This document shows positions 1-47,833 of a stretch of 64,000 bases of DNA, in pieces. The notes below the pieces were generated by a model, which saw nothing but the letters and a program-made list of their open reading frames with translations, did no database searches and was not told where the DNA came from. Source of the stretch: a virus (lineage: Duplodnaviria > Caudoviricetes); IMG/VR virus record IMGVR_UViG_3300038679_000051, positions 1-64,000 of that record. One strand, 5' to 3'. The stretch's first letter is position 1. The number at the start of each line of letters is the position of its first letter. Made by a program: the position numbers and the translations under genes.

Positions 1-210
1 AGGGTCCAACAGGACCACAAGGTCATCAGGGTCCAACAGGACCACAAGGTCATCAGGGTCCAACAGGACCACAAGGTCATCAGGGTCCAACAGGACCACA
101 AGGTCATCAGGGTCCAACAGGACCACAAGGTCATCAGGGTCCAACAGGACCACAGGGTTATCAGGGTCCAACAGGACCACAAGGTCATCAGGGTCCAACA
201 GGACCACAGG
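1..210 (+). repeat. 27-nt tandem repeat GGTCCAACAGGACCACAAGGTCATCAG (about 7 copies)
   Basis: Read directly; near-perfect copies with one GYQ variant. Confidence 0.95.
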
Positions 211-359
211 GTAGTATTGGCAGTCAAGGTAGTATTGGTGCCCAAGGTCCACAGGGTCATCAGGGTCCAACAGGCCCACAGAATGTTGCAGGTGCTCAGG
301 GTGCACAAGGTGCTCAGGGTGCACAAGGTTCCACAGGGCCGCAAGCAACGTGGGGATAA
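1..359 (+). CDS. Collagen-like fibre protein, 5'-truncated by the window
   Basis: Frame starting at nt 3 reads (GPTGPQGHQ)n...[16 protein letters not shown] and stops at TAA 357-359; missed by the ORF track. Confidence 0.9.
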
Positions 360-5746: not shown

Positions 5747-8209
5747 ATGACCAATTACAGAATCCCAGCAGTAAGTGGGTTGGTGGATCAACAATGGGTT
5801 GAAGTCATAGGACCGGATGGACTCACCACCTCCTTTTCATATGATGCCGAATCAAAATCATTATATATTAAAGAGTCCCAAATCATCATTCCACCATTCC
5901 ACGGTGGGATGCATGTCACGTCTGATCCCATACCAGAGGCGACTTGTGATCTCAAGGGCTTAATGTCTGCCGATGATAAATGCAAATTAGATGCAGTCAC
6001 ACAGACTAGACTCGGCGTTCTAGGTTTCCAAGGTAGTGGATTCCCAGATGATGGTGGTTGGATGACCGGTGACATAATGCTTGCTGCCGGTACGGAGTTC
6101 ATTTCTTTAGAACGCATTGGCAACGTCATTCGGTTTACCGTCGATTCGCCGTTGCCGCTGGCTTGTGATTGTGAAGAATGTTATCAAATATTCTGGCAGC
6201 AAGATGAGTCAGACGTTGCTGCAATACGCCCACCGTCATGTAATGGTAAACTACCTGGCGTCAATGCTTATGGTGAAGTGAAATTTTATTTAATGCCAGA
6301 GACGGCAATATTGGATACGACTAAGCCATTGTCATTGTTGAATCAGAAGGGCAAATATCCCTCGCTGATTTTCAAACGATACGATGATGCCATAACGCCT
6401 GGATCAGGCGAACTAGACATCGTTTTAAAGCGGCGGGCTAATTTAGCCACGCAAATCGGTTGGTCATTTACTCCTGGTGCGAGTGGAGTGCCACAATGTG
6501 TGTGGACGCTCGGTGACGATTCCCAAGGTAATGAACGACGATTCGAATTCAGGCCGCAATCTGATCCTGGTTTGTTAGGCGAGCTTTTATATAAAGGCCA
6601 TTTATTGACCAAACAAATGGCCGTCATCGTCGGCTATGATGCTACCGTGTTGTCTACCAATCAATATAAGGCACGTTATTGGGACGTCAAAAATGCCGTC
6701 CCGATTGGTGATCAATTCACGGCAACTAACGTTTGGCGTTATGAAAATCCAGAAAATCAATGTACGGCAGTGGTCAACCCTAAGGTATTGACTGTTGACG
6801 GTTCACAAGACATCCTACCGACCGGTACGTTGGTTTCTCTCTGGGAGTACAAGGTCGGCGGCTCAAGCCAACCAATTCGCCGCCGATTTTTTAGTCAACG
6901 ACCACCGTTGAATGCCGGTTCGTTGTGGGCTATGACTGATGCCATTAAATTTGGTGATTTATTGGTGGCACGCGAAGAATTACCAGAAGGTGATTCAGCA
7001 GAACTTTCCGCTAGTGATGTTGGCGTTGCCGACATTAGACTAATTGAGCGCACCATTTGGGGCTTGACTGGTTTTGAGGATCGTTTAATCTTGTCAGATG
7101 ACGGTGAAGAACATGAACCGTCTGGCATGGTATTGAATCAGCAAGCTGTAGCTGATATTGATTATTCTTTACCGGGTATGCGCGTGCATACCATCGATCC
7201 AGAGGCAGTTGTTGAGCGGCCAGTATTCCTGTGGACGCGTAGAAATCATAGAAATGCATACGTTAAGGCATTGATAGGCATGCCAACTAGAAGCGATTTT
7301 CCACCATATGACATATTGCTCCGTGCACCAGTCGACAGTTTTGATGACGTATATATGAGGGTCACTCATCGTGGCACGTTCACTACTGGTCCATTTGCTG
7401 GTAGCAATTATATAGTAGTTAAGGGACAACACTGGCGTGACGTGCCCTCATCAGGAACGTTGCGACACCTGACGCCGGATCATTTAGGCCAATTGTGGAA
7501 ATATTATTTCAAGGCAGCTTTCTCCTATACCGACGACGATGGCATAACTTTAATTGGCGGTTCCGAGCCATTTCCTTTTGATTATGGAACTGCTGGAACT
7601 AGCGTGCCAAATGAACCAATCACCGTACAATTACTACATCATGATTATAACGCTCCATGCGTCCGCGTTGAATTTTCAGTTGATGAGACGACTGATGCAA
7701 ATTCAGTGCAACTGCAGTTTAAGGTCGGCATACTCGACATGTCAGAACGATATGAATTGAACAAAAGTCTGGAAAGCAAGGATGATTTGGTCCGTGGTTT
7801 GATGCCAGGTTATTGCGTCAGTAAAGTGATGACGCAAGATGGGTTCATCATTCATGGTGATGAAAAACCAGCCTCTGATCCACTTGGTTTCAAAGTCTAT
7901 AAAGGTGGATATCTGACCATACCGATCCAAGGACAAAGTGAGATTTGGAACACGCTTGAAATAATGTATAGAGATTCGCAAGTGTGGATATGGTGGAATG
8001 GGTTGCTTGTTCCGGCTGATGCAGCTGCCTCTGCTGCTTTACCGCACCCTGTCGTAGCTAATACTCCTTATTTTCCATTGATTTCTAATGTAGAAATTGG
8101 AAAGGTCGCTCTTCGAATGTTTCCAGATGCTACAATAAGAAAATTAGAGGTGAGTGATCAGTGTGCACAACACAATGAATATCAATATGGTCAAATCAAT
8201 TTAGTATAA
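5747..8209 (+). CDS. Putative tail/fibre structural protein
   Basis: 820 aa; AT..GLMS..DK.KLD fibre motif (ATCDLKGLMSADDKCKLD); beta-rich. Confidence 0.75.
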   Translation: MTNYRIPAVSGLVDQQWVEVIGPDGLTTSFSYDAESKSLYIKESQIIIPPFHGGMHVTSDPIPEATCDLKGLMSADDKCKLDAVTQTRLGVLGFQGSGFPDDGGWMTGDIMLAAGTEFISLERIGNVIRFTVDSPLPLACDCEECYQIFWQQDESDVAAIRPPSCNGKLPGVNAYGEVKFYLMPETAILDTTKPLSLLNQKGKYPSLIFKRYDDAITPGSGELDIVLKRRANLATQIGWSFTPGASGVPQCVWTLGDDSQGNERRFEFRPQSDPGLLGELLYKGHLLTKQMAVIVGYDATVLSTNQYKARYWDVKNAVPIGDQFTATNVWRYENPENQCTAVVNPKVLTVDGSQDILPTGTLVSLWEYKVGGSSQPIRRRFFSQRPPLNAGSLWAMTDAIKFGDLLVAREELPEGDSAELSASDVGVADIRLIERTIWGLTGFEDRLILSDDGEEHEPSGMVLNQQAVADIDYSLPGMRVHTIDPEAVVERPVFLWTRRNHRNAYVKALIGMPTRSDFPPYDILLRAPVDSFDDVYMRVTHRGTFTTGPFAGSNYIVVKGQHWRDVPSSGTLRHLTPDHLGQLWKYYFKAAFSYTDDDGITLIGGSEPFPFDYGTAGTSVPNEPITVQLLHHDYNAPCVRVEFSVDETTDANSVQLQFKVGILDMSERYELNKSLESKDDLVRGLMPGYCVSKVMTQDGFIIHGDEKPASDPLGFKVYKGGYLTIPIQGQSEIWNTLEIMYRDSQVWIWWNGLLVPADAAASAALPHPVVANTPYFPLISNVEIGKVALRMFPDATIRKLEVSDQCAQHNEYQYGQINLV

Positions 8210-8224
8210 TTTGCGGCATTTGCA

Positions 8225-8377
8225 TCATCCAATTCTTTTACCACAAAATGGACAATATTTCATCTTGCTGATTTCTTCTAGAAAACGTACATGAAGTTCT
8301 TTCCCACAAGCGAACGACATTGCGTCATTGCGTATTTTGACCATGCATTTCTTTTGTTTCAATTTTTCATCACTCAT
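8225..8377 (-). CDS. Small Zn-ribbon protein
   Basis: Translated by hand: MSDEKLKQKKC...CGKELH...KYCPFCGKRIG; GGGGGTAAGGA upstream. Confidence 0.6.
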   Translation of the reverse strand: MSDEKLKQKKCMVKIRNDAMSFACGKELHVRFLEEISKMKYCPFCGKRIG

Positions 8378-8380
8378 TCC

Positions 8381-8662
8381 TTACCCCCTTTCGTCGTCGC
8401 ACGTTCCGGGAAGATTCTCCCTGGTCCTAAATATCTTTGGTTTCCATAACGATACATCTTCGCATACTATTTCTTCTACATTGGTGTCCCTATTCTTGAT
8501 TTTCAGTTGTTCCAAATGATACCTCAAGCATCTTGCAGCAAACCCATGCCCGCTAAAATATCCATGATGCCCTTTGCCAAACTGGTCTTCCCCGAACACC
8601 AAGAAATCTTTTATAACTTTTTCAATCTCGTGCTTGTGAAAAGTTTCGTTAAACATTTTCAA
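8381..8662 (-). CDS. Hypothetical protein
   Basis: ORF track; fits the - strand gene run. Confidence 0.65.
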   Translation of the reverse strand: MKMFNETFHKHEIEKVIKDFLVFGEDQFGKGHHGYFSGHGFAARCLRYHLEQLKIKNRDTNVEEIVCEDVSLWKPKIFRTRENLPGTCDDERG

Positions 8663-9026
8663 TCCTTTCTTGGTCTAGCAAAACTTGGTCGGCCTCTTCC
8701 ACTGCATGCAACCTTGCTTTTTCGGCATCCTCTTCTGCGTACTTTGCCGCCAACAAAAACAATTCTCTGCTTCTTTGAGAAATTGCACGTGCCAAGTATT
8801 TACCAAGTTTATTACTTATTGCCGAATGACCTGTAGTATTGGTGGCAGGGTAGAAACGCACGGATAATGTTGAACTTCCATAGTAACCATATGAGGTGTT
8901 AATAGAAAATTTCATTGTGTCCTCGAACGCGTCAAAGTCATTGTCTTCACCCAATACACAAATAACTCTACGCTTTACATTCTTAGCGGTCAGCTTTGCT
9001 TCTATGTAGTCTTCGATCTTGTTCAT
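8649..9026 (-). CDS. Hypothetical protein
   Basis: Start trimmed to ATG 9026 (ATGA overlap with upstream gene). Confidence 0.7.
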   Translation of the reverse strand: MNKIEDYIEAKLTAKNVKRRVICVLGEDNDFDAFEDTMKFSINTSYGYYGSSTLSVRFYPATNTTGHSAISNKLGKYLARAISQRSRELFLLAAKYAEEDAEKARLHAVEEADQVLLDQERIENV

Positions 9027-9217
9027 CCCCCCCGGCTCCTTTCTCTTTCCGTTCCATGCATTTGTATCCGCTGGACGTACTCGTTCCTTACTTCGCTCCA
9101 AACCATATCGTGTGCTGCCATCATATGATGATTCAATCGCCTGTGTGGTTCTTTACGTTGGTGCATCTTGCAGATCGGACACTTCCATGAAAAATTAAAG
9201 CGACCGATGTCACTCAT
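9023..9217 (-). CDS. Small C2H2-like Zn-finger protein
   Basis: CPIC...HHMMAAH; strong RBS. Confidence 0.6.
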   Translation of the reverse strand: MSDIGRFNFSWKCPICKMHQRKEPHRRLNHHMMAAHDMVWSEVRNEYVQRIQMHGTERERSRGG

Positions 9218-27323: not shown

Positions 27324-27970
27324 TCAAGCCTTCATATAGAAATGATTGATTTGTTGTTTGTGTACTAATTTATATCCAATTGAACTAAATTGGGCAGCTT
27401 CTGCGGCATTTCTGTTTTCGTATGGACATTCAATCACGAATACCTTCGGATATAATTCTTTTTTAGTGAATCCTTTTATAGCATCAAGTTCACCACCTTC
27501 TAGATCAACCGACATTACGTCTATGCTCTTAATATCTGCCATGTCCGTTTCGAACAATTTATCAAGTGTTCTGACTTTTACCTTGATATCTTTTTTATAT
27601 TTATAAATGCCAGTTTTAAGATCAGCTTCAGTATGTATATATGGTTTTAGAGCTGAAGCAGCTTCCATCGTTACTACTCCACCAGCATATCCAGCCCAAT
27701 CGGTTGCTCTAAATATTGAAAATTTACGTCATCAGCATTATAATCAGCAACGGCACATTCGATTATTCTGCGATTAGCAGCGCGATGCATTTGGGTGAAT
27801 TCAGGATTTGCTTCTATTCCAACGGTAATCCAACCCGATTCAAAAAAATGACGAGACAAAGAAATGAAATCAGGTCTACCCGCACCTACTTCAATGAACG
27901 TGCCTTTATAATTCATGTCTGGAAAGATGTTTCTGATGGCCTGATCAGTCTCGAATTCTCCATAAAACAT
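27324..27970 (-). pseudogene. FkbM-family methyltransferase split by a -1 frameshift at AAATTTT (27725-27719)
   Basis: 5' half has FIEVGA..GIEANP; 3' half has VRTLDKL..IDVMSVDLEGGE..VFVIE; halves join with one extra T. Confidence 0.8.
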
Positions 27971-28729
27971 TTAGATGATGTCCTTTGTGTAGTATGGGTG
28001 GGTTTTTAACACATTTGGCAAATTTTCTAGCTCAAATGGTTTGGCAACCCCCCAAAAATTCTGATGGCAGGTTGGATGCAGGTCTGACATTGACCTATCC
28101 ATAGGCCATGCTTTGAACTTGGATTCAAACCATTCAGGTCGCCATTCACCTTTATGACCATGAATGTCAATTTTATATTTGATGAATCTCTCCTCGCGAG
28201 CATATCCAAAATGAAATACTGGTCCAAATTCTGCTGGTACGCAGCGATATGTGCCATATGATGCCGTCCTTTTAGGAGCATATAATCTATCTGGCATGCA
28301 TGGATCAGTGAGATGATATTTGAATGATCTCCAGAAATGAATGAATGGCATTTTAAAACAACTAACGTCGGTTGTTTTTAAACAATACTCGATGATTCTA
28401 CCTATTGTGTTCTCATGCCATATTTCATCAGCATCTACCACCAAAATGAGATCAGCCGCTCCATAATGCTTCCCAACCACACCACGGTGCTGTCCCTCGT
28501 GGGCATAACGTCCATCTACAACATGAATTTTATTTCCTGGATCTCCAAAAACATAGAGTGCATCCATAACGTCAGCACGAGTCTCTGGGTTTAATAAATT
28601 GGTGCCATGTCCATGAGATGGTTGATCAGTATAAACGACAAATATTTTGTCAACATGATCATAAATCGATTTTACTGAATATGCTAAATAATCGCATCCG
28701 TAATGTAAGATGTAGTTTGCTACAATCAT
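27971..28729 (-). CDS. Glycosyltransferase family 2-like
   Basis: ILVVDADEIW; PVFHFGY. Confidence 0.75.
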   Translation of the reverse strand: MIVANYILHYGCDYLAYSVKSIYDHVDKIFVVYTDQPSHGHGTNLLNPETRADVMDALYVFGDPGNKIHVVDGRYAHEGQHRGVVGKHYGAADLILVVDADEIWHENTIGRIIEYCLKTTDVSCFKMPFIHFWRSFKYHLTDPCMPDRLYAPKRTASYGTYRCVPAEFGPVFHFGYAREERFIKYKIDIHGHKGEWRPEWFESKFKAWPMDRSMSDLHPTCHQNFWGVAKPFELENLPNVLKTHPYYTKDII

Positions 28730-29487
28730 GTTGATCTCCTTATTTTTTCTAAAAAGATGTAAACATCCCCGTAATTCTTACAGTTGACGAAATTGTTATC
28801 CCACAATTTGAAAGGGTAATTCCAACCAAGAAACGCTCTTGGTTTATTTCTATTTATCTCTGTGTAACTAGCGGCATTCACTCCACTGCCACGCATCATT
28901 AAGGCGGTACAGACATTGCTCAAATTAGACAATGAAATTAAATTTGCGCTCTGACAATCATGTACGTTTGGAAAACCAGTGGGGGGAGTTGATGAGGTAT
29001 AAAATTGGAGATCTTTAAAATCGTTGGCCATTTTTGGTATTATCTCATTCATGTCGATATAATTTTGAAATGATAAACTTGGACCATTTTCAACTAAGAT
29101 ACATTTCTGGGGCATAGTAGTAATTTCTACATGTGGAAATTCTATCATCGGATGTTTGTCTGGTGGCTGTAATCTATAGAATAATTTTTGTTGTTCCATT
29201 TGTCTATTGAATGAATGGAGTTGAGTAAAATATGTCATGTGATGGGCATGTAGGATGTCATGAAAATAGCCAAACCAAGCATTAAAAATATTGCTGTTGT
29301 TTGCTTTTTCTACTACGGGGAGACCCAAATCACTCAATAAATAATGATGTTTTGCTGGGAATTGTAAAGTAATCCGTATGTCTTCAAAGGAATTTTTAAT
29401 AGATAAAATGATTGGTCTGGTTAAAATTACGTCGCCAGCGTGTGACTGGTTTCCATCATGAAAACGATTGATGATTGTTAAATCCAT
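28726..29487 (-). CDS. Hypothetical protein (glycosyltransferase-like)
   Basis: GDVILTRP GT9-like start; island context. Confidence 0.55.
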   Translation of the reverse strand: MDLTIINRFHDGNQSHAGDVILTRPIILSIKNSFEDIRITLQFPAKHHYLLSDLGLPVVEKANNSNIFNAWFGYFHDILHAHHMTYFTQLHSFNRQMEQQKLFYRLQPPDKHPMIEFPHVEITTMPQKCILVENGPSLSFQNYIDMNEIIPKMANDFKDLQFYTSSTPPTGFPNVHDCQSANLISLSNLSNVCTALMMRGSGVNAASYTEINRNKPRAFLGWNYPFKLWDNNFVNCKNYGDVYIFLEKIRRST

Positions 29488-31138: not shown

Positions 31139-31876
31139 TCATTTAATCTTTTTGAATTCGGTTACGACGAACTTACCGAAGCCTTGTGACCGACTGGCAC
31201 CTAAGCCATCTCCTTCGGCCAATTTCAGCATCCGCTTAATGTGCTCTTCTTTGAAGGCACCGTTGATTGGCCACTTGATGGTAAAGGTGGCTTGTGCTTT
31301 TTCGACATATTCATGTCTACCGATGGCCGACCGTCGTCCGGATGCATCGCTGATGTGCTTTATGCGATCGACGTTGCCGTCTGCTTTCTTAATTGGTTTA
31401 CCGTCTTTGAGCAACCTGATGCGCAGTGGGTCGATGTGTAGGCCGTGCTGCAACGTTTGGCGACCACCAGCATGTCCAGCATTGTCGTCATTGCTCTTGC
31501 GTTTGCCGGGCGGCAATTGCGTTATACCAAGCGTGACGGCACATTCGCGCAACAATGCCTTGACGTTGGCATGCCATATGGTCAAACATTGTTCATTGTC
31601 GCGTTCAAACACGCAGCAATTCGATTCCTTAGCCGATACCAATTCATTATCGAGCAATTTTCCATCTCGCACTCGTTCGCGAAATTCCTCCTTTTCCTTA
31701 TCGGACATGTGTTTGGCTTCCATGTAAAATTCAAGCATGTCACCCATCGCAGGGCAACCACCAAGCACTTTGTCTAAGAAACATATGCTCACTTGATATT
31801 CTTCAAAAAGTTTGACGTCATCCAACACTGACAACACTGATTTCGTTTTTGTTTCAGTCTTTGTTTTGATTTGCAT
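31139..31876 (-). CDS. Solitary Cas7/RAMP-like protein (Csf2/Vipr-like)
   Basis: YQVSICFLDKVLGGCP; FERD...IWHANVKALLRE; C-terminal G-loop GLGASRSQGFGKFVV; AAGGAG RBS. Confidence 0.8.
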   Translation of the reverse strand: MQIKTKTETKTKSVLSVLDDVKLFEEYQVSICFLDKVLGGCPAMGDMLEFYMEAKHMSDKEKEEFRERVRDGKLLDNELVSAKESNCCVFERDNEQCLTIWHANVKALLRECAVTLGITQLPPGKRKSNDDNAGHAGGRQTLQHGLHIDPLRIRLLKDGKPIKKADGNVDRIKHISDASGRRSAIGRHEYVEKAQATFTIKWPINGAFKEEHIKRMLKLAEGDGLGASRSQGFGKFVVTEFKKIK

Positions 31877-31891
31877 TTTTGTCTCCTTTAA

Positions 31892-32091
31892 GGGTTGCCT
31901 TGGAAAGGCCAGGTCTAGATGGGCATGTCACTTGGGCGGAGCAGGAGCGACTTGGTGTGGCCCGTCTCAAATGTCTCAGCATGTCACACTCCGGGTTAAA
32001 TGGCATGTCGCAAAGGCTCGGCTTGAATTGGCTAGTCTCAAATGTCACAAAGGCCCGGAATGGCTTGTCACGGACTGTACCGACTTGTCAC
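31892..32091. repeat. Pentamer-periodic array G(G/T/A)N-NN with recurring GTCNC-AAA(T) punctuation; candidate guide RNA locus
   Basis: 36 pentamers in 7 runs, 33 start with G (+ strand); GTC[A/T/G]C occurs 9 times; lies directly 5' of the RAMP gene RBS. Confidence 0.75.
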
Positions 32092-32155
32092 ATGGACGTC
32101 TATTCTTTTTATGCTCGTTCGTCAATTTTCTAGGATTCTTGACCAAATATATTTT

Positions 32156-33325
32156 ATGATAGGCACTACTAAATATATTGAATTGGTTGCCGTTAGACAG
32201 CATGGCAGCGTCACCATAAGCAATGGTAACGTCCGTGAAATTTATACACCTACGTTTGGCATGGTGATTAGGGACGTCGTCTGGAAAGCGAATTTGAATC
32301 CATCTGATTTTGATGTTTGGGTGCCTGATTATGAGCACATGAATCTTAAACAAGCTGGTGTGATGGATCCGGTCACCAATGGTGACGTAATCGTATTGAC
32401 GCACATTGCATTTGGGATGGATTATAAAAAAGCCACTGAGGCATATGCATTGCTCAAATCAATCATGCCCAGTAGATATGCCGTCTTTAGGGAATCCGAC
32501 CCTGGTTCTGGCTCTGACATACCGTCCAAGGTCCCGCCACACGCCATCATCAGCCTTACCGAACGTTTTGGCGATGCGCCGTTGGACGTTTTGTTCGATG
32601 CGTCTGGGTCATATGATGAAATCGTTTCAATAACTGAATATGAGTGGAATTTTGGTGACGGCAACAAATCATCTGAACCGGTGGTTGACCATCAATATCA
32701 GAAAAATGGTGCTTTCACGGTCACGCTGACCGTGAAAAATGATTTGGGCATGATCGGCAGTACGACCAGACAGATATTGGTCGGTCCAGCCAACGTTCCG
32801 ACGGCAGCAGATCAATCGGTTGCCACGGTGGTCAACAGGAGCGTCAACATAACTTTAGTGGCGAATGATCCACAGGGACGTAGTTTGACGTATTCGGTTG
32901 TTAGGGTGCCATTGCATGGTACGCTTACTGGCATGGCACCTAATTTGACATATACGCCAAATGCCACATACGAAGGTGATGACGACTTCATTTTCAAGGC
33001 CAATAATGGGGCAGTAGACACTAACTCTGCGACCGTCAGCATCTCCATCAAATCTTCTGAGACGCCAGAAATTATCTCAGGACCTACTGTGACGCCGGAT
33101 TCAGTCAGCATGGATGAACCGGTATATTTTGGAATATCTGCCATTTCCACCAGTCCGATTGCCTTAAGATATATGTGGAATTTCGGCGATGGCAACATAT
33201 CTACTGTACAGAATCCAATGCATACATATGCATCGTCGGGGACGTTTATAGCGACCGTGACCATTAGCGTGGGCAACAGCACGACGGTGAAAACGGTTGC
33301 GGCGATTAGTGTCTTAGTAGGCTAA
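32156..33325 (+). CDS. PKD / Ig-like (PKD-Big_9-PKD) decoration protein
   Basis: FDASGSYD..YEWNFGDG..HQY..GAFTVTLTV; LTYTPNATYEGDDDFIFKANNG; YMWNFGDG..HTY. Confidence 0.88.
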   Translation: MIGTTKYIELVAVRQHGSVTISNGNVREIYTPTFGMVIRDVVWKANLNPSDFDVWVPDYEHMNLKQAGVMDPVTNGDVIVLTHIAFGMDYKKATEAYALLKSIMPSRYAVFRESDPGSGSDIPSKVPPHAIISLTERFGDAPLDVLFDASGSYDEIVSITEYEWNFGDGNKSSEPVVDHQYQKNGAFTVTLTVKNDLGMIGSTTRQILVGPANVPTAADQSVATVVNRSVNITLVANDPQGRSLTYSVVRVPLHGTLTGMAPNLTYTPNATYEGDDDFIFKANNGAVDTNSATVSISIKSSETPEIISGPTVTPDSVSMDEPVYFGISAISTSPIALRYMWNFGDGNISTVQNPMHTYASSGTFIATVTISVGNSTTVKTVAAISVLVG

Positions 33326-38762: not shown

Positions 38763-38778
38763 GTTCTTCTCCGTTCGG

Positions 38779-38851
38779 TAGTCCCAGAAGGATTCGAACC
38801 TTCGACCGAGGGATTATGAGTCCCCTGCTCTCACCGCTGAGCTATGGGACC
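38779..38851 (-). tRNA. tRNA-Ile2 (CAU anticodon), CCA not encoded
   Basis: GGTCCCATAGCTCAG..GGGGA-CTCATAA-TCCCT..GGTTCGAATCC..TGGGACTA; C4:G69 and C5:G68 fit Ile2/TilS; elongator Met not excluded. Confidence 0.88.
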
Positions 38852-39144: not shown

Positions 39145-39160
39145 GCCCTTTCGTTTTTTG

Positions 39161-39541
39161 TGGAGGCGAGGGGAATCGAACCCCTGTCCCAAAAGAATTC
39201 CGACTCGACCGCTACATGTTTAGCACCATTTTAATCTTTTGCTTTCCTCTTTATGGTGCGACGCTGGAAAGCTACGGTTCCATTGATCTTACATGTTTCA
39301 CCTGGAACAACGGTTTGACATGCCAGTTCGTTTCGGTTACGCGTCTTAGGCGACCACGAACGGGGTCATCCTAAAACACGTCGCTGTTCTTAGGCAGCGA
39401 AGGCAACGCCCTTGCGAGCGTTGACTGCAAAGATGTTCTCTTTGGCAGTTGAAAGTTTGTGGATTTGATTTAAGAGAGATTCCACTGCTCTCTACATGCT
39501 GTCGAAATCTTCCTTCAAATGGTCGAAACCTTTGCGCCCCC
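39161..39541 (-). ncRNA. ssrA: tmRNA; tag (A)AKENIFAVNARKGVAFAA
   Basis: 5' GGGGGCG pairs with 3' CGCCTCC-A with G3.U70; T-arm GGTTCGATTCC; resume context AACT|GCC at 39446; stop 39392-39390. Confidence 0.95.
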
Positions 39542-47415: not shown

Positions 47416-47670
47416 TCATTCATCATCTGCGATGGCTTGTGCCGTTGCTCGTATAAATTCATCTGCAAATAAACCAGCCCGACGGACTGAAAACAATTCT
47501 GATTCTTTGTCTTTAGATATTATAGCAATGGCGAATAACAAATGATCTATGAGGTGCGTCATTTGTTTGAGATTTTCAAATCTCACATCATCCTCGTTCG
47601 TTTCACCAACCGGATTGATGGGTCCGACCAACTTATTAACGACTTTGTTCAAATTAATGTCGTTTCCCAT
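47416..47670 (-). CDS. Hypothetical protein
   Basis: GAAGGAG RBS; 84 aa. Confidence 0.7.
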   Translation of the reverse strand: MGNDINLNKVVNKLVGPINPVGETNEDDVRFENLKQMTHLIDHLLFAIAIISKDKESELFSVRRAGLFADEFIRATAQAIADDE

Positions 47671-47833
47671 TATCAGCTCCTTCCAACGGTACGTAATGTT
47701 TATAATTTGCCTTTAACAATGCCATTATCAGCTCCTTCCAACGGTACGTAATGTTTATAATTTGCCTTTAACAATGCCATTATCAGCTCCTTCCAACGGT
47801 ACGTAATGTTTATAATTTGCCTTTAACAATGCC
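47667..47833. repeat. Three perfect tandem copies of a 55-nt unit
   Basis: Units start at 47667, 47722 and 47777; each carries RBS plus ATG on the - strand. Confidence 0.95.

What the first reader, a model, noticed from the sequence alone, without database searches (positions are those of the whole stretch)
31139..31876. Cas7/Csf2-like protein with no other cas gene nearby
Seen: a RAMP-type first strand (YQVSICFLDKVLGGCP), the IPxxxxKGxLR-equivalent (IWHANVKALLRE) and a terminal Gly loop (GLGASRSQGFGKF). I found no Cas1/2/3/5/6/8/10, DinG, CysH or repeat-spacer array in the 64 kb. The gene sits on the - strand between glycosyltransferase genes, like an inserted cassette. Alternative roles: an anti-CRISPR decoy that poisons host Cascade/Csm assembly, or a remnant of a type IV module.
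Basis: partly seen in the sequence, partly recalled or inferred. Interest (0 to 1): 0.75.

Follow-up and report, generated by a model that had tools for sequence, protein, structure and literature searches.

The report
Phage VIPR RAMP gene with guide-repeat array
The lone Cas7-like gene is real, but it is the protein of a VIPR system, a phage-borne CRISPR-like RNA-guided DNA-silencing module first described in 2026 preprints, and its array of five-base guide repeats lies directly beside it.

Summary
The 245-aa ORF (31139-31876, minus strand) and its three motifs are as described. Its AlphaFold model (pLDDT 82.8) is a single-RRM RAMP fold, closest to Csm3/Cmr4/type VII Cas7. No Cas1, Cas10, other RAMP or CRISPR array was found in the 320-kb phage genome.

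It is not an orphan:
- Its five best AlphaFold-DB cluster matches are exactly the five seed proteins used to define Vipr (bioRxiv 10.64898/2026.04.26.720920).
- A profile of its family aligns to the family of the characterised SUSP1 Vipr (hhalign 96.4%, E 1.3e-9).
- The 205-bp gap next to its start codon (31886-32091) holds nine units of (NNNGG)n followed by NNNGTC[A/G/T]C. This is the densest such cluster in the genome (P about 1e-9).
- The same architecture flanks homologues in 11 other phage loci.

Best reading: a VIPR locus, Vipr plus a vrRNA-like array, probably silencing competing mobile elements.

Differences from the reference system:
- units are short (3-7 repeats);
- the GG register lies antisense to vipr;
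- the residues that read the two G's in SUSP1 are not conserved;
- no vap gene is evident.

The transcribed strand, the pairing rule and the targets remain open. This scan has already reported VIPR loci in at least 17 other genomes. Verdict: a new member of a known kind.

The parts
31139..31876 (-). vipr-like gene: a 245-aa minimal RAMP. In the AF2 model: strand 1 at residues 24-33, then GG-P (39-42); a helical bundle at 47-85; helix 1 at 102-116; a variable linker at 118-137; a long beta-hairpin ('thumb') at 167-191 carrying the conserved motif KHISDASG+RSAIGRH; the Gly loop at 224-234; the last strand at 236-243.
31882..31887 (-). Ribosome-binding site AAGGAG of the vipr-like gene. The first repeat unit abuts it.
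   Evidence: Read directly from the sequence
31886..32091 (+). vrRNA-like array. Nine segments each end in GTC[A/G/T]C. Six of them carry 2-7 phased NNNGG-type pentamers plus NNN before the end motif. The GG register is on the plus strand, antisense to the gene. Which strand is transcribed is not settled.
   Evidence: 9 end motifs against 0.43 expected (P 1e-9); the densest 210-nt window in 320 kb on either strand; GG autocorrelation peaks at lags 5, 10 and 15 (reached by 1 of 5000 shuffles)
31889..31931 (+). Unit 1: seven pentamers (TAAGG GTTGC CTTGG AAAGG CCAGG TCTAG ATGGG) plus CAT GTCAC
31932..31968 (+). Unit 2: six pentamers of NNNG[G/A] type plus CCC GTCTC. Two short fragments follow it (31969-31977 and 31978-31987), each ending in GTC[T/A]C.
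31988..32011 (+). Unit 3: degenerate, ending AATGG CAT GTCGC
32012..32039 (+). Unit 4: four pentamers (AAAGG CTCGG CTTGA ATTGG) plus CTA GTCTC. The fragment AAATGTCAC (32040-32048) follows.
32049..32071 (+). Unit 5: three pentamers (AAAGG CCCGG AATGG) plus CTT GTCAC
32072..32091 (+). Unit 6: degenerate (GGACT GTACC GA) plus CTT GTCAC
32092..32155 (.). AT-rich 64-bp spacer between the array and the divergent PKD-domain gene (32156-33325, plus strand). It is the only repeat-free room for promoters in this divergent gap.
   Evidence: The sigma-70 scan found nothing convincing here.

Best explanation
The gene and the gap beside it form a VIPR (Viral Interference Programmable Repeat) locus of a 320-kb jumbo phage from groundwater: a Vipr protein and its array of short guide RNAs.

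The mechanism is carried over by analogy with the characterised SUSP1 system. Vipr protomers would bind one pentamer each along the RNA. The Gly loop, helix 1 and the thumb would hold the fixed bases. The variable bases would be presented for gapped pairing with double-stranded DNA. The filament would then repress transcription of a competing phage, satellite or prophage.

Shown here:
- the RAMP fold;
- homology to Vipr;
- the repeat array and its recurrence beside homologues;
- the absence of cas genes.

Inferred:
- that the array is transcribed and bound by the protein;
- that it guides DNA binding;
- that the targets are rival mobile elements.

Open:
- which strand is the RNA. I put the GG strand, antisense to vipr, at about 60%. 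I put the CC strand, co-transcribed with vipr, at about 40%.
- whether two or three bases per pentamer pair with the target.
For: 1. Fold. The AF2 model (pLDDT 82.8) is a single-RRM RAMP with a thumb hairpin and a Gly loop. PDB hits are Csm3, Cmr4 and type VII Cas7.

2. Vipr seeds. The five best AFDB cluster hits are A0A1F4YLN4 (2e-12), A0A2D6XG06, X1U2U4, A0A661D0E2 and A0A0F9A1L0. All rank ahead of any CRISPR-annotated cluster. These are exactly the five Vipr seed entries named in the Methods of bioRxiv 10.64898/2026.04.26.720920.

3. Profile homology. The family profile A2 (71 sequences) aligns to the SUSP1 Vipr family A3 with hhalign probability 96.4%, E 1.3e-9, over 143 columns. A3 matches the PDB chain named 'SUSP1 Vipr protein' at 5e-82. 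The SUSP1 residue numbers agree with the structure paper.

4. The array. 31886-32091 holds (NNNGG)n plus NNNGTC[A/G/T]C units, and the statistics are strong. The same scan recovers all four published SUSP1 vrRNAs as a positive control.

5. Recurrence. The same unit architecture lies next to homologues in L001 (the isolate Microcystis phage Mae-JY09), L002, L004, L006, L009, L010, L016, L017, L026, L027 and L028. There are 146 strict units on one strand against 10 on the other.

6. Published variants. The paper reports alternative NNNGG, YNNNG and NNNNG repeats, 'staggered' arrays in which one vrRNA ends where the next starts, and stand-alone vipr genes.

7. Family range. The family is viral: Atlas clusters are 72-100% viruses and the IMG/VR loci lie on contigs of 10-103 kb.

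8. No cas genes or CRISPR array in the genome.
Against: - Expression and RNA binding are not shown. Two metatranscriptome runs have contigs over 31926-32077 and 31573-31723. Cover is thin and patchy, carries no strand information, and could be carried-over DNA.
- The GG register is antisense to vipr, unlike SUSP1, where it is on the gene strand.
- Units are much shorter (3-7 pentamers, modal 5-6 in relatives) than the published 9-16. The 'tail' is 8 nt and has no predicted structure.
- In the hhalign register, SUSP1 D177/W178 (which read G1 and G2) correspond to Ala227/Ser228, and E71/M72 to Asn104/Val105. The base motif that is read may therefore differ.
- No conserved accessory (vap) gene was found.
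- No target was found.
Confidence: 0.85

Rival explanations
1. A solo Cas7 decoy (anti-CRISPR). The phage protein joins the host type I, III or IV effector backbone and poisons its assembly. The nearby repeats are unrelated.
For: It has a Cas7-like fold and there are no cas partners in the genome. A homologue in L017 sits directly after an Acb2/Tad1-like counter-defence gene.
Against: Its structural neighbours are Vipr seeds, not host Cas7. Identity to any CRISPR RAMP is 9-20%, which is poor for a mimic that must fit a host complex. The family is linked to its own pentamer arrays in 12 loci of very different GC content and presumably different hosts.
Confidence: 0.04
2. A decaying remnant of a type IV or type III CRISPR-Cas module once carried by the phage.
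For: Type IV Csf2 structures match at VIA Z 9.0-9.2. Some huge phages carry CRISPR systems (general knowledge).
Against: The ORF is intact and well conserved, with 26 invariant columns across 20 homologues. The family has 1035 representatives, almost all 200-300 aa and solo. Csm3 and Cmr4 score higher than Csf2. No DinG, Csf1, Csf3 or CRISPR repeat was seen in the 320 kb.
Confidence: 0.03
3. The GTC[A/G]C-punctuated region is a DNA-level element: an operator or promoter array in the divergent control region between the RAMP gene and the PKD gene. The RAMP protein would then act on some other RNA.
For: The array fills a divergent promoter gap. In five related arrays the repeats abut the ribosome-binding site of the next gene. 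No transcript strand is known.
Against: The 5-nt phasing, with fixed G's and variable other positions, is the published signature of vrRNAs. It is also seen in kilobase-long arrays (L004 2.9 kb, L010 1.8 kb, L009) far larger than any operator region. The arrays occur upstream of, downstream of, or kilobases away from the gene.
Confidence: 0.06

Closest known systems
VIPR systems (Vipr protein plus vrRNA). Reference: the type II system of Escherichia phage SUSP1 (KT454805; vipr 28474-29061, vap1 28031-28471). Papers: bioRxiv 10.64898/2026.04.26.720920 and 10.64898/2026.04.26.720927.
   Same: - A phage-borne minimal single-RRM RAMP with thumb and Gly loop.
- No cas genes.
- A flanking intergenic array with 5-nt period, fixed G's and variable other positions, each unit closed by a conserved 3' element.
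- Profile-profile homology and the same AFDB neighbours.
- The Gly-loop core G-x-G..R..FG+F, including R179/R229, is kept.
   Different: - 245 aa rather than 195, with a larger helical insertion and linker.
- The repeat is NNNGG, with no pyrimidine constraint, rather than YNNGG.
- 3-7 repeats per unit rather than 9-16.
- An 8-nt NNNGTC[A/G]C end rather than a roughly 40-nt pseudoknotted tail.
- Units abut one another.
- The GG register is antisense to vipr.
- D177/W178/E71/M72 are not conserved.
- No vap gene.
- The host is a 320-kb jumbo phage.
Non-canonical and 'staggered' VIPR arrays: NNNGG, YNNNG and NNNNG repeats in 10.64898/2026.04.26.720920; GAC/NN, CAC/NN and WGT/NN clusters in 10.64898/2026.10.21.760802.
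   Same: A 5-nt period with a divergent fixed part beside a Vipr-like fold. Units in which the end of one marks the start of the next.
   Different: I could not see the figures or the type table, so I cannot say which of the seven types this clade belongs to. The text says staggered arrays were not among those confirmed by small-RNA sequencing.
Type III and type VII CRISPR Cas7 (Csm3, Cmr4, Cas7 of type VII)
   Same: The best solved-structure matches. Csm3 9g9a_D: Z 11.3, rmsd 4.7 A, 161 aligned residues. Cmr4 6s6b_I: Z 10.8, rmsd 4.5 A, 160 aligned. Csm3 6ae2_B: Z 10.4, rmsd 3.5 A, 153 aligned. Type VII Cas7: Foldseek E 2e-7. Shared features are the RRM core, thumb and Gly loop.
   Different: 9-20% identity. 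No Cas10, Cas5, Cas11 or Cas6 partners. No CRISPR array. Repeat period of 5 nt rather than 6.
Type IV Csf2 (Cas7)
   Same: RAMP fold. Matches: 8rc2_A Z 9.2 (rmsd 5.4 A, 156 aligned), 7jhy_e Z 9.1 (4.5 A, 153 aligned), 8rc3_A Z 9.0 (4.7 A, 174 aligned).
   Different: It scores below Csm3 and Cmr4. No Csf1, Csf3, DinG or CysH was found.

Membership tests
VIPR system | A Vipr protein: a small single-RRM RAMP with a Gly-rich loop and a thumb, lacking a second RRM | tested here: met
   AF2 model (one RRM core, a beta-hairpin at 167-191, the Gly loop at 224-234). RAMP matches.
VIPR system | Closer to the published Vipr seed proteins than to CRISPR RAMPs | tested here: met
   The top five AFDB cluster hits are the five seed accessions in the paper's Methods. 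CRISPR-annotated clusters follow from rank 6.
VIPR system | Sequence homology to an experimentally characterised Vipr (SUSP1) | tested here: met
   hhalign A2 against A3: 96.4%, E 1.3e-9, 143 columns. A3 matches PDB 'SUSP1 Vipr protein'. A single-profile HMM search alone was weak.
VIPR system | Not associated with cas genes or a CRISPR array | tested here: met
   over the whole 320-kb genome
VIPR system | A tandem pentanucleotide array (fixed G's, variable N's) in the intergenic DNA flanking vipr | tested here: met
   31886-32091. Recurs in 11 homologous loci. SUSP1 served as a positive control.
VIPR system | Canonical type II vrRNA: 9-16 YNNGG repeats plus a structured 3' tail, on the same strand as vipr | tested here: not met
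   3-7 NNNGG repeats, an 8-nt end motif, and a GG register antisense to the gene. This rules out type II, not VIPR as a whole, because the paper lists NNNGG and staggered variants.
VIPR system | Residues that read the GGY motif in SUSP1 (H17, D177, W178, R138, R179, E71, M72) | tested here: inconclusive
   In the hhalign register R179 corresponds to R229 (invariant) and R138 to H188/R187. D177 corresponds to A227, W178 to S228, E71 to N104 and M72 to V105. The alignment has 12% identity, so the register could be off by a residue.
VIPR system | An accessory vap gene next to vipr | tested here: inconclusive
   No neighbour is shared with the close homologue loci within 5 kb. The neighbours are GT2 or PKD genes or have no Pfam hit. 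The paper allows stand-alone vipr genes.
VIPR system | vrRNAs are expressed, processed and bound by Vipr | not testable with these tools
   Only unstranded metatranscriptome contigs were available; one spans 31926-32077.
VIPR system | Guides match competing mobile elements under a gapped pairing rule | tested here: inconclusive
   Only exact contiguous-triplet searches were possible. IMG/VR gave chance-level hits that did not extend. JGI metagenomes gave none. There were no self-targets.
Type III CRISPR Cas7 (Csm3/Cmr4) | A subunit of a Cas10-containing effector encoded in a cas operon with a CRISPR array | tested here: not met
   No Csm1/Cas10, Cas1 or further RAMP and no CRISPR array in the genome
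Type IV CRISPR Cas7 (Csf2) | Encoded together with Csf1, Csf3 and usually DinG or CysH | tested here: inconclusive
   No other RAMP was detected in the genome, so no Csf3. I did not search specifically for Csf1, DinG or CysH models.

The most novel reading that the evidence does not exclude
This clade of Vipr proteins may use a guide format and code that differ from the published one. The guides would be abutting mini-guides of only 3-7 pentamers, closed by NNNGTC[A/G]C, with three free positions per pentamer. The residues that read G1 and G2 are replaced.

The RNA would then be one of two things:
- an antisense transcript that starts inside the neighbouring gene, or
- a CCNNN-type RNA carried in the leaders and intergenic gaps of the vipr operon itself. 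That would be a fixed-base motif complementary to the known one.
Probability: 0.3. Interest if true: 0.7.

Novelty: new member of a known kind. Interest (0 to 1): 0.45.

Why it matters
VIPR is a newly described, minimal RNA-guided DNA-recognition system proposed to be older than CRISPR. This locus extends it to a 320-kb groundwater jumbo phage. It also documents a large, almost wholly metagenomic Vipr clade with unusually short abutting guides and diverged base-reading residues.

If the strand and pairing rule of this clade differ from SUSP1, that would widen the known code space of these programmable binders. The cultured Microcystis phage Mae-JY09 carries the same clade and array type, so it offers a way to test this at the bench.

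For the scan, the practical lesson is that a 'solo RAMP' in a phage should prompt a look for 5-nt periodicity in the flanking gaps.

Tried and rejected
**Canonical repeat scan.** A scan of the genome for GGYNN-type tracts (at least 6 of 9 units in phase) found nothing near the gene. The array only showed up with a looser 5-of-7 GG scan.

**Target searches.**
- Triplets of units 1 and 2 were concatenated into contiguous 18-mers. IMG/VR returned 2 and 4 contigs, which reduce to one and two independent families. That is about the chance expectation, and the flanking triplets did not extend the match.
- The 21-mer of unit 1 had no hit in JGI metagenomes.
- A 21-mer from a thrice-repeated L004 unit had no hit in IMG/VR.
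- There were no matches within the window at up to 3 mismatches.
- Real guides did no better than shuffled guides against the 320-kb genome plus all fetched loci at skip 0 or skip 1.
- The published xNN rule gives only 14-16 fixed bases for these short units. That is too few for an exact-match scan, so I did not run it.

**Transcript strand.**
- Sigma-70 and terminator scans were uninformative in the window.
- In the relatives the signals conflict. For vipr-sense transcription: a strong terminator follows the L004 array on that strand, a hairpin follows the array at the right end of the Mae-JY09 genome, and arrays abut the next gene's ribosome-binding site in five cases.
- Against it: vipr-sense terminators sit directly in front of the L002 and L026 arrays, leaving no room for a promoter.
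- Short similarities to the start of the SUSP1 tail (GG-GTAGT, TAGTCTCA) favour the GG strand.

**RNA evidence.** Metatranscriptome contigs (X6, X7) cover parts of the array and the gene at 100% identity. They are sparse and unstranded.

**Other checks.**
- Rfam found no family in the array.
- Among isolated phages, tblastn with three family members found only Mae-JY09.
- The closest homologue's contig (P0002) could not be read.

Full report
**Observation.** The ORF at 31139-31876 (minus strand, 245 aa) is present, with an AAGGAG site upstream of its ATG. They are conserved in 19 metagenomic homologues of 38-61% identity.

Library HMMs give only weak hits, but they agree with each other. Pfam RAMPs scores E 0.04. 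PADLOC Csm4 scores 6e-5, and Cas6, Csm3, Cmr1 and type IV Cas5 models score lower. All hits fall on the C-terminal Gly loop.

An AlphaFold2 model built on the alignment has pLDDT 82.8 and pTM 0.72. It is a single-RRM RAMP. Foldseek against the PDB returns type VII Cas7 and Csm3 at E about 1e-7. The Foldseek-independent VIA search gives:
- Csm3 9g9a_D: Z 11.3, rmsd 4.7 A, 161 aligned residues;
- Cmr4 6s6b_I: Z 10.8, rmsd 4.5 A, 160 aligned;
- Csm3 6ae2_B: Z 10.4, rmsd 3.5 A, 153 aligned;
- type IV Csf2 chains: Z 9.0-9.2.

So the fold claim is confirmed.

**Genome context.** The window is the first 64 kb of a one-contig, 320,399-bp IMG/VR virus record. That genome has no match to Pfam RAMPs, Cas1 or Csm1/Cas10. 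It has no second member of this family and no CRISPR-like array. The 55-66-nt periodic repeats I found are a perfect tandem triplication and coding repeats. To the right of the gene lie a PKD-domain gene and three GT2 genes. The ORFs to the left have no Pfam hit.

**What the protein is.** A profile search of 1.8 billion representatives finds 1035 relatives at E 1e-3 or better, and 510 at 1e-10 or better. Almost all are 200-300 aa. Neither Pfam nor PHROGs names the family. ESM Atlas neighbours are viral clusters without annotation.

A literature search led to bioRxiv 10.64898/2026.04.26.720920. It describes VIPR systems with these parts:
- a minimal phage-encoded RAMP (Vipr);
- sometimes an accessory vap gene;
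- vrRNAs made of tandem pentamers with fixed G's and variable bases, encoded in the long gaps flanking vipr.

The ribonucleoprotein binds double-stranded DNA through gapped pairing and silences competing phages.

Three tests place my protein in this family:
1. The paper's Methods name five AFDB cluster entries as the founding Vipr hits. Those five are exactly ranks 1-5 of my earlier Foldseek search, at E 2e-12 to 6e-7, ahead of every CRISPR-annotated cluster.
2. I located the SUSP1 locus (KT454805), collected its protein family and compared profiles. The result was hhalign 96.4%, E 1.3e-9, over 143 columns.
3. That SUSP1 family matches a PDB chain titled 'SUSP1 Vipr protein'. Its residue numbers agree with the cryo-EM paper 10.64898/2026.04.26.720927.

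**The array.** The 280-bp gap between the gene and the divergent PKD gene is not empty. Read on the plus strand, 31886-32091 consists of nine segments, each ending in GTC[A/G/T]C. Six of them carry 2-7 phased pentamers of NNNGG type, followed by three free bases and the end motif.

The statistics are:
- nine end motifs against 0.43 expected (Poisson P about 1e-9);
- the densest such 210-nt window on either strand of the 320-kb genome (10, against at most 5 elsewhere);
- GG autocorrelation peaks at lags 5, 10 and 15, reached by 1 of 5000 shuffles;
- under a strict unit definition, three units within 150 nt here, against four scattered singletons in the remaining 640 kb of both strands.

The two next-densest places are not arrays. 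The same simple scan recovers the four published SUSP1 vrRNAs, one upstream and three downstream of the genes, which serves as a positive control.

**Recurrence.** The same architecture lies beside homologues in loci of very different GC content:
- L002: three arrays;
- L017, L026, L027 (about 20 units) and L028 (about 17 units), all from the close clade;
- L004 (2.9 kb, at least 37 units), L006, L009, L010 and L016;
- the cultured Microcystis phage Mae-JY09 (L001).

The end motif drifts with the clade (GTCGC, GTCGG, GTTGC). The modal unit has 5-6 pentamers. Position 4 is G in 93% of pentamers and position 5 in 76%, while positions 1-3 are free. The paper reports NNNGG, YNNNG and NNNNG variants, 'staggered' arrays whose units abut, and stand-alone vipr genes. 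A later preprint adds further non-canonical 5-mers. I therefore file the locus as a VIPR member, but not of the characterised type II.

**How it probably works.** This part is carried over from SUSP1 and is inferred, not shown. One protomer binds per pentamer. Helix 1, the Gly loop and the thumb hold the fixed bases. The variable bases pair with DNA at three target nucleotides per pentamer. The filament then blocks transcription of a rival element.

In the hhalign register the Gly-loop core and R179 (R229 here) are kept, and R138 aligns with H188/R187. The residues that read G1 and G2 (D177, W178) align with Ala227 and Ser228. The pyrimidine-pocket residues E71 and M72 align with Asn104 and Val105. 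This fits the loss of the pyrimidine constraint. It also leaves open that a different fixed motif is read.

**Unresolved: the strand.** In SUSP1 the GG register is on the vipr strand. In this clade it is antisense: 146 strict units against 10.

Evidence for transcription with vipr, which would give a CCNNN-type RNA:
- Arrays fill gaps between co-directional genes and end exactly at the ribosome-binding site of the next gene. This holds in the window, in two arrays of L002, in L017 and in L026.
- A strong terminator follows the L004 array on that strand.
- In Mae-JY09 every annotated gene in the last 9 kb is on that strand, and a 13-bp hairpin follows the array.

Evidence for the GG strand:
- It gives the published orientation, repeats followed by a 3' end element.
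- There are short matches to the start of the SUSP1 tail.
- Vipr-sense terminators directly precede the L002 and L026 arrays, with no room for a promoter.
- In L027 the array continues a minus-strand operon.

I put the GG strand at about 60%.

**Targets and expression.** Exact searches with contiguous triplets gave only chance-level hits that did not extend. The units are too short for an exact search under the xNN rule.

The phage DNA occurs in groundwater and coal metagenomes from several studies. Two metatranscriptome runs hold unstranded contigs over part of the array and part of the gene. That is compatible with expression but does not prove it.

**Rivals.** The decoy, remnant and operator-array readings are each hard to square with three facts: the protein's nearest neighbours are Vipr seeds, the family is large and intact, and the protein is linked to phased arrays, some of them kilobases long, across many loci.

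**Earlier scan notes.** Notes from this scan report VIPR loci in at least 17 other genomes. Another first-reader note on this same stretch also records a 5-nt-periodic array. I had found the array independently before seeing that note.

**Verdict.** The anti-CRISPR decoy and type IV remnant interpretations are not supported. The locus is a new member of the VIPR kind, with variant guide architecture and an open question about strand and code.

Noticed in passing
window 38777-38851 and 39158-39541 (minus strand): The phage carries a tRNA-Met (CAT) and a full-length tmRNA (Rfam 151 bits). ARAGORN reads the tag peptide as AKENIFAVNARKGVAFAA.
   Followed up: partly
window 1-280 and genome 320,150-320,399: Both ends of the contig lie inside a 27-bp tandem repeat that codes collagen-like Gly-X-Y. 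The 'direct terminal repeat' and 100% completeness in IMG/VR may therefore be an assembly break in a repeat, not a true terminus.
   Followed up: partly
window 47667-47831: A perfect 55-bp tandem triplication. Its minus strand reads like a promoter plus ribosome-binding site plus ATG, so it may be a triplicated gene start.
   Followed up: no
G000:C1:120889-120991 (outside the window): A roughly 100-nt, extremely G-rich tract (runs of GGGG/GGGC) on the minus strand. It is not phased like the array and I have no explanation for it.
   Followed up: no
L027 3992-4702; L010 3286-5037: Gene calls or long ORFs on the vipr strand run straight through pentamer arrays and are probably spurious. Array DNA can be mistaken for protein-coding sequence in annotation.
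   Followed up: partly
L017 5475-5984: In a 53%-identical homologue locus the gene directly upstream of vipr carries an Acb2/Tad1 hairpin domain, as in anti-CBASS and anti-Thoeris sponges. This suggests the module sits among conflict genes.
   Followed up: no
L001 (Microcystis phage Mae-JY09, PP395641) 7965-8711 and 8744-9105: A cultured cyanophage has a Vipr of this clade (26-36% identity) with an array of at least six units (GTCGG ends) in the last 500 bp of its genome. Both are annotated only as hypothetical or unannotated. It is a tractable model for this clade.
   Followed up: partly
L002 15093-15206: A third small array of three units lies 4.4 kb downstream of the vipr homologue, next to a caspase-like (Peptidase_C14) gene. 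Arrays need not be adjacent to vipr.
   Followed up: no
window 27324-27970 (minus strand): Two adjacent ORFs (114 and 98 aa) look like the two halves of one protein. I did not check it.
   Followed up: no
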